Assembly (NCBI GenBank): GCA_009914755.4
Contig: CP068257.2
Location: 22,592,001-22,656,000 of the forward strand
Length of the DNA: 64,000 nt
Source: the human T2T-CHM13v2.0 reference genome, Homo sapiens
Reading direction: 5' to 3'
The translations under genes were made by a program, and so were the position numbers. This document shows positions 3,645 to 63,320 of the stretch, one piece after another (position 1 is the stretch's first letter; each line of letters begins with the position of its first letter). The notes under the pieces are model-generated. The model saw nothing but the letters and a program-made list of their open reading frames with translations. It was not told the origin of the DNA and did no database searches.

Positions 3645-3917
<273 letters not shown>

Positions 3918-4204
3918 TAGAGATTGTGCTGCCTACTTAACAGATTTGCTGAGTCCAAGGGGAAAATATAACTAGCGAATTATCTAAAAGATTGATATCA
4001 TATTACAAATAAACAGCTAAAAGCTGCCCTTGATTCCTGGATTATTATTTGAAATGACTTTAATCCCATTCCCAATAAAAAAATACAGACCTGTTTACAT
4101 TATTATGATTGGGATATGATCATGATTTATTAGCTTTTATTTCAATAGAACTGTTGTAACTTTACTTATTCTAACAAGAACATTTATGATGATTAGAACC
4201 TTGA

Positions 4205-4576
4205 TCTTTTCTTTATCCAGCCTATCACTGATGGGCATTGAGCTTGGTTCCATGTCTTTGCTATCATGAATTGTGCTGCAATGATCATATGCGTGCATGT
4301 GTCTTTATAATAGAATGACTTATATTTCTCTGGGTATATACCAAGTAATAGGATTGCCTAATGAATGGCATTTCTGTCTTTAAGTCTTTGAGGACTAGCC
4401 ACACTGTCTTCCATAATGGATGAATGAATTTACACTTCCACCCAATAGTGTATAAGGGTTCTGTTTTCTCCACAACCTCACCAGTATCTGTTATTTTTTG
4501 ACTTTTGAAGAATAGCCATTCTGACTGGTGTTGGATAGTATCTCATTGTGATTTTGATTTGCATTTCACTAATAAA
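4205..4576 (-). mobile_element. L1 ORF2 C-terminal segment in inverted orientation; 5' part of a twin-primed L1 insertion
   Basis: Reverse complement matches L1 ORF2 (...cagtgtggc..aagacatggaaccaagctcaatgcccatcagtgatagg...). The minus-strand ORFs at 4285-4473 and 4478-4699 translate to ORF2-like peptides (LWKTVW..KDL..PF, ...MQIKITMRYY.TPVRMAI..K..NN). It is immediately followed by a sense-oriented L1 3' end. Confidence 0.8.
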
Positions 4577-4943
4577 CCGTAGAATACTATGCAGCCATAA
4601 AAAAGAAAAAAAGACCATGTTCTTTGCAGGGACATGGATGGAGCTGGAGGTCATTATCCTTAGCAAACTAACACAGAAACAGAAAACTAAGAACTGCATT
4701 TTCTCACTTATGAGTGGGACCTAAATGATGAGAACACACGGACACATGGAAGGGAACAACACACACTGGGGCTTTTTGGAGGGTGGAGCATGAGAGGAGG
4801 GAGAGGATTAGGAAAAACAAATAATAGATACTTGGCTTAATATCTGGGTGGTGACATAATCTGTACAATACAGCCCCACTACATGAATTTACCTATGTAA
4901 CAAATCTGAACTTGTACCCCTGAACTTAAAAGTTAAAAAAAAG
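4577..4943 (+). mobile_element. L1 3' end (end of ORF2 plus 3'UTR plus poly-A), sense orientation; 3' part of the twin-primed L1
   Basis: agaatactatgcagccataaaaaag...gggacatggatggagctggaggtcattatccttagcaaactaacacagaaacagaaaactaagaactgcattttctcacttatgagtggg...ctgaacttaaaagttaaaaaaaag. The element is flanked by a 10-bp TSD: AGAACCTTGA at 4195-4204 and AGAACCGTGA at 4942-4951. Confidence 0.85.
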
Positions 4944-7900
4944 AACCGTGACCTTGCCATCATCAATAACTGTAACTTCTTTATAATCTCCATTTCATAG
5001 ATAGGACTTTCTGTCTATCAGATAAATTGAAAGGCATAGGTTTGCTATCTACTCAATCTCTCTAGTTTCCTGATTTCAACAATCTTTGACCCAGAAAAAC
5101 ATCTAATCCATTGGTTCCATCATCTTTTGACTGTCCTGTTCCCTCTGAATATTTTCTCACCATCTGTTTCTCAATTTGTTTCATGGTCAAACACTATAAT
5201 TAATCTGTTGCTTACAACTGCAAATCATTTTGCAGTATTAATTCTACAAAATCATTATCAAAAGCCAGTTAAATCTATCTTATTTCTAGTTTATGTATAC
5301 CCCTCCCCACAAGAAGCTGAATGAGAATGGAGCATGCACTCTACCCTGGCATTTCAAATTTTTCTTAACCTATTTTCCTTTCTTTTTTTAAAAAAAATTG
5401 TAATGCTTACTTTTCACTTTATAATATTGTACATAATATATTCTGTATATTGCTGATGACCTATTTATTATGTATATTTCAAGAATGCAATATCTCATGG
5501 GGTAAGAATCTTTGTTTTTTGTTCATTGATCTATTCCAAGATGCAGTTTCTGGTACCTAGTGGGTCACTCAATGTCTAATGTTGAAAAATAAATTATGTA
5601 TTTGATATTTTTTCTTATTCTACACATTATCTTGGATATTTTAGAATATTGTTTCACATTAGCCACACAGACTACGAAGACTGATTTATTGTCCTACAGT
5701 TTCTCTAAGTTTTCTGTGTATAAAGTTCTAAGTCACATTTTCTTCTTATGCCTACTCTTTGTTCATGGTAGGTATGTATATATTACTGGGGAGAACTCTT
5801 GCAGTATTGCTATATCTGCTCTGACGAAGTCTTCTCATTTTTAGTTCTCCCTTACTTCTGGGTCATATCGTTTTCCAGAGAAGCATAATTATAAAGTACA
5901 GAAAAAATAATTTTTAGTATCATAGGAAAGATGTGAACTCATCATACTGTTAAGTTTTATTTTTATGTAAATGCACTTAATAGAAGTTTTTTCAGTGTTA
6001 ATCTAAGATTTTTTTTTAAATAAACTGTGTAACTTACTTCTTTTTAACTCTTATTCAGTCTTTGCTTGACATAATAAAGACCTAGGTTATAAAAATATTG
6101 AAAGATACATAGGTGAGGTATGACCTAATATTATTTGCATCTAGATCCATCTCTAAAATTAGAGTCTTTTAGTCTTAGACTAAAAATCATAATCAGTGAG
6201 TATATATTCATAACTACAAAGCTCTTTATAATATTTTGAATTTGCCCACATAATTATTTCAGAATATTTTTACAGAATTGCTCAGGGGTTTAAGACAACT
6301 TCAGAAAAAGTAGCATAAGCAGATTAATTGCTCCGAGATTTTGTAATTATATAGAACTGTTCTTAATTAGTGGAAATCAGTAAGAAGCCTGTCCTGAGTA
6401 ACAGAATGTACTGAATAGCAATATCCTTTACTTGTATCCACCATGTCTTTTTCTACTCCTATTTTATGCATAATAAATTAGAAGTGAATTAAATGAAGTG
6501 AAAACTCGTTTCTTGATGGAGTAGAATACTTAACATTCCTATTTTTGTCTTAAAATTATGTAATTTAAAAAAGTATTGACAAGTTAGTAATGTCAGTAGA
6601 AAAATCAGTCTAAGTACTTTTAAGAAAGTGATTAGTTGCTTTACTACTTAGTGGTTAGATGCAGGCTTATTCAGAACAACTTCACAGACTAAATCTCTTC
6701 CTAAAATACGAAGTTCTAGGGAGTAGGCAAATGTCAGTGTCTTGAACATAAATAGGCTAATATAAAGGACTTTCATATTTGCTAAACTAATTACTTCTGA
6801 CTTAATCTATATCTCTCAAAGTTCTGAACTTCATAGAAAAATAGCAATATACTCCCAGGTTGAAATATCATGTTTAATTCTGAAAGTATTTGCTGCATAT
6901 CTTTAAGTACAGAGTCACTGACTGCACTAATTACCTTTCTCAGACAGAAACAGAGATTTCTCAGTAGATGCCAGCAGGAATAGGTTCTAATAGGTTATGA
7001 ATAGAGGATTAAATTGTAGAAGCACATAGTCCACCTTCCCATTGCCTTCCATGATTTTTGCCACAACTTAAAAATAACATAGAACTTGGAGTGGGTGCCC
7101 TAAAATGATCAATATTTTAATTCTTAACTACATAATACATTGAAGATTCAAAAGATAAATTAAATTCAATTACTGAAGAATATAAAAACAATAATGATTG
7201 AATATCTGAAATTGCATTGTAAAAATGCATACCTTTACAAAAATGTTAGGCATTCCTCCAGAGTGAATTCATAAAGAATAGGTGAAGCAATGGAAAGAGT
7301 ATTTGACAGTTTAACAAAGATTGGAAATGTAAAATCTGAAAGACAATTTTAAAAAGCTAGGCGTATAAAAATTAAGGAAAAGATAAGCCAATGACAGGGA
7401 AGAGTTCTTGCAAAAACCCTGAAGTAGGAATGAGCTTGATTTATTCAAGAGAATAATTGAACATTAGGGCTTTTGAACATAATTATAGAGGAGAAAAACG
7501 AAGCGGTGGAGAAGTAGGGAGTCATTAGCAGATATTAAAATCTGAGGTTTTCTAAAATTTAGAGATGGTAGCATAGGGGAAAGGAACTTAGAAAAGCTAT
7601 TGAGATGAAGCAGCCAGTGAGGATAGAAAAAAAAAGAGGACATTAAGAGATGATGTTTCAAGTAAAATGAAAATGGTCTCCTCTGTAATGTGGCTGAACA
7701 TTCAAATGAGACAAGATAAACGAAGTGGTAACTGGAATATATATATTCCTCCAACAAAGCTCATTGTCAAGTATAAGATTTTTAAAAATGAAGGTTGATC
7801 GAGAAGATTTGAAAGTTTACTATGAATGAAAGAATATTAGAGCCAAATAGGTGCCATAAAAATAGCTTGAGTGACAGATCTATACTGCATAGAAACATGA

Positions 7901-9546
7901 AGTATAGTTTATAAGGGAAAATAGTCCAGATAATTAGGTCTATGATGAAACAAGGGGGTTGGATGTTGAAGGACAACTAAAGCTAAGATGTTTGGTAGGC
8001 AGCAAGTGTGGACACTGAGGTTAGCTTGAGTAATGGCAGCAGTTTTAGTGAAGAGGGTTTTAAGTCAAGTGTCTAGTTGTCCATGGAAGAGAGAGTTTGG
8101 CCAGAAGTTAGAGAGGGGACAACAAACAGAAGATTGTAGGATGGAAGAGAGGTTTTGTTAAGTTTTATAAAAAGAAGAGTACTAGTATAGAAATTGCAAT
8201 GTAGAAAGATGGAAGTATGCTACCACTTACGTGCTTCTGTGATTGGGAGAAAAAGAGAATCTTTTTTTAGAGAAACCTTCAAAAGGAGAGTTATTTCTGG
8301 AACTCTTAGATTATAGAATAAACTTTATAAGTATGTGGCATGGAAAATGTTACTCATATTAACACCCACTCCTCTTTGTGTCTGCCTTCCTGCTACACTC
8401 ACGGTAGGGCAAGAAATAGGGGTAGGCTCCAAGGTGGTTTCTAGTCATTTCTCTGTCCTTTAAATTATCCTTCATTCAAGCATAATATTTGAAAAACATG
8501 TCTATAAAATTACTTTGTTTTGTTGCATGTATATGTGTGTTTCTGTGTAATCATGCCATTTATTTTAATTATAAAAATATTCACGTTTTCAATAACAGAA
8601 TTCTTGAATTATATGTTTGTTGTGGTGAGAAATGTTTGTTAGAATTCAGAATGCTAAAAATATTTATAGTGACAATTATTCTACAATTTAAATTTAAATA
8701 GTATGAATTTTTCTCTTCAATTAAGTAGTGTGCAATAAAATTTAACACATGCTTAGAAAGCAATTACCATCATATAAGAAGGAATGGGAATATTTTAATT
8801 GGTTTGTGAATTACTTTTTCTAAATAGTACAATCATTTTTCTTTTGAAATGAGGTTAAAAAACCAAAATCTAAGCTAACTATATGTAGTTATGTCCTAGA
8901 TATCTTTGTTTAATGCATTGTTATAATTATGCTGAATAATCAAAGAACAATAGGAAATTTGAAAGACTGATGAATAGAATACTATTTTAAGTCAAACAAT
9001 TATTGACTTATTTGTATTCTTTGTGGTTTCACCAAACTAATTTTCACCTTTTACTTACTTGAACTATAATGGGGACACCTAACTTATTTTAGCTGTGTAG
9101 ATTAATTCCATTTAACACTCTTTCTCAAATACTTGTAGACTTCCATTTTTATCTCATAATTATTACCATAATTGAAGATAACTCCTATAAATTATTTATT
9201 GTGGTGATCTACAGATATAGTGGGGAAAATGTATTACATTGAGCAATATAATGTCTATAATATATGTAGGATAATTTACTACATAAGATTTCTAAATATT
9301 ACTTTCTGTTATGAACAAATTATTGTTACGTAAGACCTGTCAGGTCATTTGGGGAATCACCTAGCCATGCAGGACCATTACCTACAGTATTATTTTCCAG
9401 GAAACTGTGAATTTCTAAATAATTCAACTGCTAAGTCTCATATATTTTCTAATTCACAATATTTAGTAACTAGAGAATTGCATCATCTACCTATAAAAGA
9501 ACACCAGAGACAGAACACATTCTCTTTCTTCTTACACAAACATTTC

Positions 9547-26750: not shown

Positions 26751-28036
26751 TTTTTTAAGTTTTAGTTTCAGCAGTATATGTTTGTTACATAGGTAAACTC
26801 CTGTCATGGGGGTTAGTTGTACAGGTTATTTTATCATCCAGGCATAAAGCCCAGTACCCAGTAGTTATCTTTTCTGCTCCTCTCCCTCCTGTCACCCTCC
26901 ACTCTCAAGTAGACCCCAGTTTCTGTTGTTCTCTTCTTTGCATTAATGACTTCTCATCATTTAGATTGCACTTGTAAGTGAGAACAGGACGTATGTGGTT
27001 TTCTACTCCTGTGTTAGTTTGCTAAGGATAACCACCTCCATCTCCATCCATGTTCCCACAAAAGACATGATCTCCTTTTTTATGGCTGCATATTATTCCA
27101 TGGTATATATGTACCACATTTTCTTTATCCAATCTGTCATTGATGGACATTTAGGTTGTTTCCACATCATTGCCGTTGTAAATACTGCTGCAGTGAATAT
27201 TCGTGTGTATGTCTTTATGGTAGAATGATTTATATTCCTCTGGGTATATTTCCAAGTAATGGGATGGTTGGGTCAAATGGTAATTCTGCTTTTAGCTTTT
27301 TGAGGAATTGCCATATTGTCTTTCACAACGGTTGAACTAATTTATACTCCCAAGAGTGTATAAGTTGTTCCTTTTTCTCTGCAACCTCGACATCACCTGT
27401 TATTTATGACTTTTATATAATAGCCATTCTGCTGGTCTGAGATGGTATCTCATTATGATTTTGATTTGCATTTCTCTAATGCTCAGTGATATTGAGCTTG
27501 GCTGCATATATGTCTTCTTTTAAAAATATCTGTTCATGTCCTTTGCCTAATTTATAACGGGGTTGTTTGTTTTTCTCTTGTAAATTTGTTTAAGTTCCTT
27601 ATAGATTCTAGGTATTAAACCTTTTTTCAGAGGCGTGGCTTGCAAATATTTTCTCCCATTCTATAGGTTGTCTGTTTATTCTGTTGATAGTTTCCCTTGC
27701 TGTGCAGAAGCTCTTAACTTTAATTAGATCCGACTTGTCAATTTTTGCTTTGGTCGCAATTGCTTTTGATGTTATTGTCGTGAAATCTTTGCTAGTTCTT
27801 AGGTCCAGGATGATATTGCCCAAGTTGTCTTCCAGGGCTTTTATAATTTTGGATTTTACATTTAAGTCTTAATATATTTATTAAATTTGTTAGGGTTTCA
27901 GGATACAAGGACAATATAGCAGCAAACAATGTAAAAGTAAAATCTGAAAAATAATAGAAAACAGTTTAATTGAACACTTTACCATTATGTAATGCCCTTC
28001 TTTGTCTTTCCTGATCTTTGTTGGTTTGAAGTTCAA
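26751..28036 (-). mobile_element. Younger L1 (L1PA-like) 3'UTR plus ORF2 fragment, antisense, nested in the older minus-strand L1. It has an internal deletion that joins the ORF2 C-terminal region to the ORF2 start region.
   Basis: ttttttaagttttagtttcagcagtatatgtttgttacataggtaaactcctgtcatgggggttagttgtacaggttattttatcatccaggcataaagcccagtacccagtag...gtgagaacaggacgtatgtggttttctactcctgtgttagtttgctaaggataaccacctccatctccatccatgttcccacaaaagacatgatctccttttttatggctgcatattattccatggtatatatgtaccacattttctttatccaatctgtcattgatggacatttaggttgtttcc... is the reverse complement of the L1PA 3' end. It ends with ...ctttaccattatgtaatgcccttctttgtctttcctgatctttgttggtttgaagttc, the antisense of the ORF2 start region. 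Confidence 0.75.
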
Positions 28037-45648: not shown

Positions 45649-46085
45649 CTTTTTTCTTTTCAACTTTGAAGTTCTGAGGTACATGTGCAGGATGTGTAGG
45701 TTTGTTACACAGGTAAAAGTGTGCCATAGTGGTTGCTACACAGATCAGCCCATCACCTGGGTATTAAAACCAGCATCCATTAGCTATTCTGATGCTCTCC
45801 CTCCCCCTGCCCCCGCAAAATGCCCCAGTGTGTGCTGTTGCCCTCCATGTGTCCATGTATTCTCATCCTTCAGTTCCCACTTACAAGTGACAACATGCAG
45901 TGTTTGGTTTTCTGTTCCTGTGTTAATTTGCCGAGGATAACGGATTCCAGCTCTGCCCATGTCCCTGCAAAGGACACGATCTCATTCCTTTTTATGACTG
46001 CATAGTATTCCATGGTGTATATGTACCACATTTTCTTTGTTTAATCTATCATTGGTAGGCATTTGGGTTGATTCCATGTCTGTCT
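45649..46085 (-). mobile_element. L1PA-like 3' end (3'UTR plus last part of ORF2), antisense, ~420 bp, with a T-rich tail on the + strand
   Basis: cttttttcttttcaactttgaagttctgaggtacatgtgcaggatgtgtaggtttgttacacaggtaaaagtgtgccatagtggttgctacacagatcagcccatcacctgggtattaaaaccagcatccattagctattctgatgctctccctccccctgcccccgcaaaatgccccagtgtgtgctgttgccctccatgtgtccatgtattctcatccttcagttcccacttacaagtgacaacatgcagtgtttggttttctgttcctgtgttaatttgccgaggataacggattccagc...tttatgactgcatagtattccatggtgtatatgtaccacattttctttgtttaatctatcattggtaggcatttgggttgattccatgtctg is the reverse complement of the L1PA 3' terminus. Confidence 0.88.
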
Positions 46086-63157: not shown

Positions 63158-63320
63158 CTTTAAGTTCTGGGGTACATGTGCAGAACGTGCAGGTTTGTTA
63201 CATAGGTATACATGTGCCATGGTGGTTTGCTGCACCCATCAACCCGTGATCTACATTAGGTATTTCTCCTAATGCTATCCCTCCCCTACCCCCACCACCT
63301 GCCGACAAGCCCCAGTGTGA
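63158..63320 (-). mobile_element. Short L1PA-like 3'-terminal fragment (~165 bp), antisense, preceded by a T-rich tail
   Basis: tttttttttt agattttttt cttgttttattgttat then actttaagttctggggtacatgtgcagaacgtgcaggtttgttacataggtatacatgtgccatggtggtttgctgcacccatcaacccgtgatctacattaggtatttctcctaatgctatccctcccctacccccaccacctgccgacaagccccagtgtga is the reverse complement of the L1PA 3' terminus. Confidence 0.85.

What the first reader, a model, noticed from the sequence alone, without database searches (positions are those of the whole stretch)
4195..4951. Complete twin-primed (5'-inverted) L1 insertion with intact target-site duplications
A 370-bp L1 ORF2 C-terminal segment lies in antisense orientation (4205-4576). 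It is fused directly to a sense-oriented L1 3' end with poly-A (4577-4943). The inverted segment corresponds to L1 sequence immediately upstream of the sense segment, with a ~40-bp gap at the junction. The whole unit is bracketed by a 10-bp TSD, AGAACCTTGA / AGAACCGTGA. This is the signature of twin priming during target-primed reverse transcription: a single retrotransposition event preserved with its junctions, not two independent insertions.
Basis: partly seen in the sequence, partly recalled or inferred. Interest (0 to 1): 0.55.

Follow-up and report, generated by a model that had tools for sequence, protein, structure and literature searches.

The report
Old 5'-inverted (twin-primed) L1 insertion
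This is a decayed, roughly 750-bp LINE-1 retrotransposon copy in a primate genome whose front half was pasted in backwards during insertion; about one in five L1 insertions look like this, so it is a clean example of something ordinary.

Summary
Read on the minus strand, window 4205-4576 encodes L1 ORF2p residues 1101-1222 (E = 3e-37 against the solved human ORF2p). Window 4576/4579-4724 on the plus strand encodes residues 1228/1229 to the stop codon. A ~210-nt L1 3' UTR and an A8 tail (4935-4942) follow. The unit is bracketed by AGAACCTTGA (4195-4204) and AGAACCGTGA (4942-4951). This is a 9/10 match, extendable to 12/14, with P about 0.008 given positional slack. The end of the inverted arm that touches the upstream duplication is the L1 position lying just upstream of where the sense arm begins. 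That is the geometry twin priming predicts. One correction: the missing L1 sequence is about 5 codons (7-14 nt, at most 20), not about 40 bp. The poly-A ends at 4942, not 4943. The inferred nick site is 5'-TTCT/AATC-3', one mismatch from TTTT/AA. Both arms are equally diverged from three colinear L1 copies in the window. Both are heavily decayed, so this is an old element and probably not a young L1PA. No orthologous empty site could be obtained. Interest is low.

The parts
4191..4198 (-). Inferred L1 endonuclease first-strand nick site. The bottom strand reads 5'-TTCT/AATC-3', with the nick between 4195 and 4194.
   Evidence: Read directly from the sequence: top strand GATT|AGAA. It is one mismatch from the TTTT/AA consensus. 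The consensus is given as 5'-TTTT/A-3' in PMC2837659.
4195..4204 (+). Upstream target-site duplication copy, AGAACCTTGA. It may extend to 4208 as AGAACCTTGATCTT.
   Evidence: 9/10 match to 4942-4951 and 12/14 to 4942-4955. P(>=9/10) = 0.008 with offset slack.
4205..4206 (.). Two ambiguous bases (TC). They could be diverged L1, filler, or part of a longer TSD.
   Evidence: They match neither the colinear L1 copies (which have TG at this point in L1 sense) nor, fully, the downstream flank (CC).
4207..4573 (-). Inverted arm, the cDNA primed from the top strand. It is L1 ORF2 codons ~1101-1222 in antisense orientation. Its L1 3'-most end (GGATAAAGAAAA) lies next to the upstream TSD.
   Evidence: PDB ORF2p match, E = 3e-37. 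It is 76-77% identical to colinear L1 copies at 22856-23214 and 27119-27480. It has 3 in-frame stops.
4572..4576 (.). Inner inversion junction. These 2-5 bases can be assigned to either arm, giving possible microhomology of 0-3 nt.
   Evidence: In the alignment to colinear copies, the inverted arm is secure to 4573 (ATTAG). The sense arm is secure from 4576 (ACC) and possibly from 4572 (ATAaACC).
4576..4724 (+). Sense arm, coding part: L1 ORF2 codons 1228-1275 plus the stop codon TAA at 4722-4724. It contains one frameshift in the A-run near 4600-4616.
   Evidence: (E = 2e-12 to ORF2p 1229-1274), plus the alignment.
4725..4934 (+). Sense arm, L1 3' UTR.
   Evidence: Aligns over its full length with the 3' UTRs of L1 copies at 26751-27098 (-) and 45654-46010 (-).
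4935..4942 (+). Poly-A tail remnant (A8). The last A is shared with the TSD.
4942..4951 (+). Downstream target-site duplication copy, AGAACCGTGA. It may extend to 4955.

Best explanation
This is a single, ancient L1 retrotransposition event that went through twin priming.

Inferred steps:
1. L1 endonuclease nicked the bottom strand at 5'-TTCT/AATC-3'.
2. The freed 3' end primed reverse transcription on the poly-A tail. It copied the L1 RNA back to about ORF2 codon 1228, producing the sense arm (4576-4942).
3. The top strand was cut 10-14 bp downstream before that synthesis had gone further.
4. The top strand's 3' end primed a second reverse transcription inside the same RNA, just upstream at about codon 1222. 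It copied back to about codon 1101, producing the inverted arm (4207-4573).
5. The 3' ends of the two cDNAs were joined with 0-3 nt of microhomology and filled in.

The result is TSD - inverted arm - sense arm - poly-A - TSD, with 7-14 nt of L1 sequence lost between the two arms. The element is dead: it has stop codons, a frameshift, and roughly 12-16% terminal-branch divergence. No function is indicated.

Shown: the anatomy, the L1 coordinates, the TSD and the equal decay of the arms. Inferred: the order of biochemical steps, which comes from the published model.
For: - Arms map to ORF2p 1101-1222 (antisense) and 1228/1229-1275 (sense), adjacent and non-overlapping.
- Three colinear L1 copies in the same window have exactly 20 nt between the conservative alignment ends of the two arms. 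Base-by-base alignment narrows the loss to 7-14 nt.
- The orientation logic is as predicted. The L1-3'-most base of the inverted arm touches the upstream TSD, and the two L1-5'-most ends meet in the middle.
- The TSD is 9/10 (12/14), P = 0.008. The nick site TTCT/AA is one mismatch from consensus.
- K2P distances to copies A and B are 0.25-0.26 +/- 0.03 for the inverted arm. For the ORF2 part of the sense arm they are 0.23-0.30 +/- 0.05.
- Identity to human ORF2p is 56% for the inverted arm and 65% for the sense arm, not significantly different (Fisher P = 0.30).
- Literature: 18-22% of human L1 insertions carry a 5' inversion. In 46% of these the two cDNAs end within 20 bp of each other on the L1 reference. 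The median TSD is 13 bp (PMC12016303). The model is described in PMC2837659.
Against: - There is no comparative evidence. The empty site, or a state with only one arm, could not be looked for. Exact-match scans of metagenome and prokaryote genome collections returned only unrelated chance hits.
- The divergence comparison has low power, because the arms are short and only three reference copies were available.
- TTCT/A is not among the three motifs (TTTT/A, TTTT/G, TTTC/A) counted as endonuclease cut sites in PMC12016303.
- A hexamer of the target site (AACCGT) also sits at the inner junction (P about 0.01, post hoc). The canonical model does not predict this.
Confidence: 0.9

Rival explanations
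1. A post-insertion inversion. An ordinary 5'-truncated, colinear ~760-bp L1 inserted by standard TPRT. Later its 5' half was inverted by a two-break rearrangement that also lost about 10 nt.
For: It would give the same two arms, the same adjacency of L1 coordinates and the same outer TSD. The sequence alone cannot formally separate it from twin priming.
Against: One breakpoint would have to fall within about 2 bp of the L1/TSD boundary at 4204-4207 by chance. No inverted repeats or other rearrangement scars are seen at the breakpoints. Twin priming produces this geometry routinely, in about 20% of insertions.
Confidence: 0.05
2. Two independent events. An older antisense L1 fragment lay at 4205-4573. 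A separate 5'-truncated sense L1 (from about 4581) then inserted beside it, with its own short TSD, AACCGT (4575-4580 / 4944-4949).
For: The best 'sense-arm-only' flank match is 8/10: AATAAACCGT at 4571-4580 against AAAGAACCGT at 4940-4949. The hexamer AACCGT near the inner junction has P about 0.01 at a random position.
Against: - The antisense fragment ends inside ORF2 (codon ~1222) and has no 3' UTR or poly-T, so it is not a normal TPRT product.
- The arms' L1 end points lie within 20 nt or less of each other out of a ~6-kb element. That would be a coincidence of under about 1%.
- The outer 9/10-12/14 TSD would be a second coincidence (P = 0.008).
- Four of the six AACCGT bases are ordinary L1 sequence (ACCATG in copies A-C), and three of the eight matches are poly-A.
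- The arms are equally diverged.
Confidence: 0.03
3. Dual priming or template switching with two different L1 RNAs at the two nicks of one target site.
For: It would also give oppositely oriented L1 pieces inside one TSD. The model is described in PMC2837659.
Against: Dual priming predicts a poly-T next to the upstream TSD, because the second RNA is primed at its poly-A. Here the inverted arm starts inside ORF2. Two separate RNAs give no reason for the arms to be adjacent on the L1 sequence.
Confidence: 0.02

Closest known systems
5'-inverted L1 insertions made by twin priming (Ostertag & Kazazian 2001, as cited and described in PMC12016303 and PMC2837659)
   Same: The structure is TSD - inverted L1 segment - sense L1 3' end with poly-A - TSD. 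The two segments come from adjacent parts of one L1 RNA, with a small internal deletion. The TSD is 10-14 bp (published median 13 bp). The two cDNA end points lie within 20 bp of each other, as in 46% of catalogued cases. The arm lengths of about 367 and 366 bp fall in the published range: medians 253/292 bp for somatic and 571/751 bp for germline insertions.
   Different: Nothing essential differs. This copy is old and decayed: the tail is reduced to A8, the TSD has 1-2 mismatches, and the coding sequence has stops and a frameshift. The nick site is TTCT/A rather than TTTT/A.
Ordinary 5'-truncated L1 insertion (standard TPRT)
   Same: The sense arm taken alone (4576-4942) looks like a typical short 5'-truncated L1 3' end, with a poly-A tail and a downstream TSD copy.
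   Different: The matching upstream TSD copy is not at its 5' end. It lies 372 bp further left, beyond an antisense L1 segment.
Twin-priming variants with a 5' poly-T, and 'dual priming' (Meyer et al. 2010, PMC2837659)
   Same: Both DNA strands of one staggered break are used as primers, and TSDs bound the product.
   Different: Those loci carry a poly-T at the 5' end and little or no non-inverted L1. Here there is no 5' poly-T, and both arms are substantial.

Membership tests
LINE-1 (L1) retrotransposon fragment | Sequence homology to L1 ORF2 and the L1 3' UTR | tested here: met
   ORF2p matches with E = 3e-37 and 2e-12. Both arms are 72-77% identical at nucleotide level to other L1 copies in the window, including their 3' UTRs.
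Twin-primed (5'-inverted) L1 insertion | Two L1 segments in opposite orientation. The 3' one is in sense orientation and ends in the L1 3' end plus poly-A. | tested here: met
   Antisense arm 4207-4573. Sense arm 4576-4934, followed by A8 at 4935-4942.
Twin-primed (5'-inverted) L1 insertion | The segments map to adjacent (slightly gapped or overlapping) intervals of one L1. The inverted segment is the upstream interval. | tested here: met
   ORF2p 1101-1222 against 1228-1275. The gap is 7-14 nt, at most 20.
Twin-primed (5'-inverted) L1 insertion | Junction geometry. The L1-3'-most end of the inverted segment abuts the upstream TSD, and the L1-5'-most ends of both segments meet at the inner junction. 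| tested here: met
   GGATAAAGAAAA (codons ~1219-1222) lies at 4218-4207, next to the TSD. Codon ~1101 and codon ~1228 meet at 4573-4576.
Twin-primed (5'-inverted) L1 insertion | A single target-site duplication brackets the whole unit | tested here: met
   9/10 (12/14) match, P = 0.008. The inverted arm alone has no flank match better than 6/10. The sense arm alone reaches 8/10, partly through the poly-A and L1 sequence.
Twin-primed (5'-inverted) L1 insertion | L1 endonuclease-type first-strand nick site (TTTT/A-like) at the poly-A side of the target | tested here: inconclusive
   The site is 5'-TTCT/AATC-3', one mismatch from TTTT/AA. It is not among the three motifs scored in PMC12016303. 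From my own knowledge, such one-mismatch variants are commonly used.
Twin-primed (5'-inverted) L1 insertion | Both arms have the same age and the same source element | tested here: inconclusive
   K2P distances and ORF2p identities do not differ significantly between the arms. Power is low, and no curated subfamily consensus was available.
Twin-primed (5'-inverted) L1 insertion | Both arms are present or absent together in orthologous loci (a single event) | not testable with these tools
   No mammalian genome collection is available. Exact-match scans for the flanks found only unrelated microbial sequences.

The most novel reading that the evidence does not exclude
The hexamer AACCGT is shared by the target site and the 5' end of the sense arm (4575-4580 against 4944-4949). 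This may not be chance. It could record similarity between the L1 RNA or cDNA (ACCATG) and the top-strand overhang (ACCGTG). That similarity could have fixed where first-strand synthesis stopped and where the second primer engaged. The 7-14 nt lost from L1 is about as long as the 10-14 nt overhang, so the overhang may have covered that stretch of RNA. If so, the locus would be a fossil example bearing on why gaps and overlaps in twin-primed insertions have TSD-like lengths.
Probability: 0.1. Interest if true: 0.25.

Novelty: already known. Interest (0 to 1): 0.07.

Why it matters
It matters little beyond correct annotation. 5'-inverted L1 copies are a textbook by-product of target-primed reverse transcription and make up roughly a fifth of L1 insertions. 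This copy is short, old and non-coding. Its only value is as a tidy, fully bracketed example. It should be annotated as one insertion event rather than two L1 fragments. With comparative data it could also serve as a homoplasy-free phylogenetic marker.

Tried and rejected
(1) Empty-site search. I ran exact-match scans with the left flank (ATTTATGATGATTAGAACC, metagenome contigs) and the right flank (GACCTTGCCATCATCAATAAC, genome contigs). They returned three loci. All are unrelated AT-rich microbial or Shimia sequences with no similarity beyond the seed. No orthologue was obtained.

(2) Paralogous empty site. The joined flanks were searched with BLAST against the window. Only an Alu piece at 3704-3853 repeats. 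The immediate flanks, 3854-4204 and 4952-5450, are single-copy.

(3) Pfam scan of both arm translations: no family. The ORF2p C-terminal region is matched only through the solved ORF2p structures.

(4) Rfam at gathering thresholds on the whole window: nothing.

(5) Ostertag & Kazazian 2001 (PMC311219) is not held in the library. The model is therefore cited through PMC2837659 and PMC12016303.

(6) I considered and rejected an independent TSD for the sense arm (8/10), dual priming, and post-insertion inversion. The reasons are given under the rival explanations.

(7) I ran no further search on subfamily placement, because it would not change the verdict.

Full report
**Context.** The window is primate DNA. 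A 26-nt Alu core motif occurs 16 times with at most 3 mismatches, against 0 expected. Several other L1 fragments are present. The finding lies in AT-rich, non-coding sequence. It contains only short decayed ORFs.

**Inverted arm.** The reverse complement of 4205-4576 reads in a single frame as FISEMQIKITMRYYPTPVRMAILQKSKNNRYW*GCGENRTLIHYWVEV*IHSS...AKTWNQAQCPSVIGWIKKR. With the stops masked, it matches the solved human LINE-1 ORF2 protein at residues 1101-1222 of 1275. E = 3e-37, 68/122 identical.

**Sense arm.** On the plus strand, 4579 onward reads VEYYAAIKK. After one frameshift in an A-run it reads TMFFAGTWMELEVIILSKLTQKQKTKNCIFSLMSGT*. This matches ORF2p 1229-1274 with E = 2e-12 and 30/46 identical. 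The codon before it, ACC at 4576-4578, corresponds to T1228. The stop codon at 4722-4724 sits where the human ORF2 stop does. The next ~210 nt (4725-4934) align with the 3' UTRs of other L1 copies in the window. They end in A8 at 4935-4942.

**TSD.** AGAACCTTGA at 4195-4204 and AGAACCGTGA at 4942-4951 flank the unit. The match is 9/10 and extends to 12/14 (…TCTT / …CCTT). In 20,000 random position pairs at the same spacing, each allowed 9x9 offsets, a match of at least 9/10 occurred with P = 0.008.

**Adjacency and geometry.** Three L1 copies in the window are colinear across the relevant region: A at 22856-23437 (+), B at 26751-27480 (-) and C at 45654-46081 (-). In each, exactly 20 nt separate the conservative BLAST ends of the two arms. 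In the multiple alignment the inverted arm ends, in L1 sense, at GGATAAAGAAAA. The reference copies continue TGTGG(C/T)ACATATACACCATGGAATAC, and the sense arm resumes at (ATAa)ACCgTaGAATAC. The L1 sequence lost is therefore 7-14 nt, about codons 1223-1227, and not about 40 bp.

The GGATAAAGAAAA end, which is the L1-3'-most base of the inverted arm, lies against the upstream TSD. The L1-5'-most ends of both arms meet at 4573-4576. That is the arrangement produced when the top-strand 3' end primes inside the same RNA that is being copied from its poly-A tail. The model is described in PMC2837659 and PMC12016303.

Two to five bases at the inner junction (4572-4576) fit either arm. Two bases at the outer junction (4205-4206, TC) fit neither arm cleanly. 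Microhomology and the exact TSD length (10-14 bp) therefore cannot be resolved in a copy this old.

**Target site.** With the TSD starting at A4195, the bottom strand reads 5'-GGTTCT/AATCATC-3'. The nick site is TTCT/AA, one mismatch from the TTTT/A consensus quoted in PMC2837659. This is a plausible L1 endonuclease site. It is not one of the three motifs scored in PMC12016303, so I rate this feature as inconclusive rather than met.

**One event or two.** The evidence favours one event.
- The inverted arm has no 3' UTR and no poly-T, so it is not a normal stand-alone TPRT product.
- Its best flank match on its own is 6/10.
- K2P distances to copies A and B are 0.26 and 0.25 (+/- 0.03) for the inverted arm. 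For the ORF2 part of the sense arm they are 0.30 and 0.23 (+/- 0.05).
- Identity to human ORF2p is 56% against 65%, with Fisher P = 0.30.
- Both arms are almost free of CpG, with 1 and 2 CpGs.

These tests agree with a single age and source but have low power.

One oddity: the sense arm alone has an 8/10 flank match, AATAAACCGT / AAAGAACCGT. The hexamer AACCGT of the TSD recurs at the inner junction, with P about 0.01 at a random position, judged post hoc. However, three of the eight matched bases are poly-A. Four of the six hexamer bases are ordinary L1 sequence, since copies A-C read ACCATG there. A two-event history would also need two further coincidences: L1 end points within 20 nt or less of each other, and the outer TSD. 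I treat the hexamer as chance, or at most as microhomology.

**Age.** Three-point estimates from the pairwise distances give a terminal branch of about 0.12-0.16 substitutions per site for this copy. This is an upper bound because it includes subfamily differences. The single mismatch in the 10-bp TSD is compatible with that figure. From memory, the 3' UTR is of the older L1PA/L1PB/L1MA type rather than the young L1PA type. This was not tested, because no curated consensus was available. An empty site is therefore more likely to be found outside the anthropoid primates.

**Comparison with what is known.** 5' inversions occur in 18.4% of germline and 21.9% of somatic human L1 insertions. In 46% of inverted insertions the two cDNAs end within 20 bp of each other on the L1 reference. 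The median TSD is 13 bp (PMC12016303). This locus sits in the middle of those distributions.

**What could not be done.** No mammalian comparative data were reachable. Flank scans of the metagenome and prokaryote collections gave only chance hits. No paralogous empty site exists in the window.

**Verdict.** This is an already known, common kind of structure with no indication of function. Interest is low.

Noticed in passing
window 4573-4582 versus 4942-4951: The inner junction of the two L1 arms reads TAAACCGTAG. It shares the hexamer AACCGT with the 3' TSD copy, AGAACCGTGA. P is about 0.01 for a random position, judged post hoc. Other L1 copies read ACACCATGG here, so two of the six bases are substitutions towards the target sequence.
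   Followed up: partly
window 22856-23437 (+), 26751-27480 (-), 45654-46081 (-): Three other L1 3'-end fragments are colinear across ORF2 codons ~1100-1275. I used them as references. Copy A breaks off inside the 3' UTR near 23437. Its 3' UTR looks like a different (younger, L1PA-like) type from those of copies B, C and the element under study.
   Followed up: partly
window 23703-24068 (+) and 24816-24918 (-); also 18216-18552, 63159-63319: There are further L1 ORF2/3'-end fragments. One pair lies in opposite orientations about 750 bp apart: sense ORF2 ~1101-1222 on the left and antisense ORF2 C-terminus on the right. That order is not the twin-priming arrangement, so these are probably separate or nested insertions.
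   Followed up: no
window 10666-62571 (16 sites) and 3704-3853: The window is dense in Alu elements. There are 16 hits to a 26-nt Alu core motif on both strands, plus an Alu piece 350 bp upstream of the L1. This identifies the window as primate DNA. No Rfam family reaches its gathering score anywhere in the window.
   Followed up: partly
window 7250-8250: This stretch has strongly positive GC skew (0.39-0.46) and positive AT skew, unlike its surroundings. It may be a purine-rich simple or low-complexity repeat, or a strand-biased repeat element.
   Followed up: no
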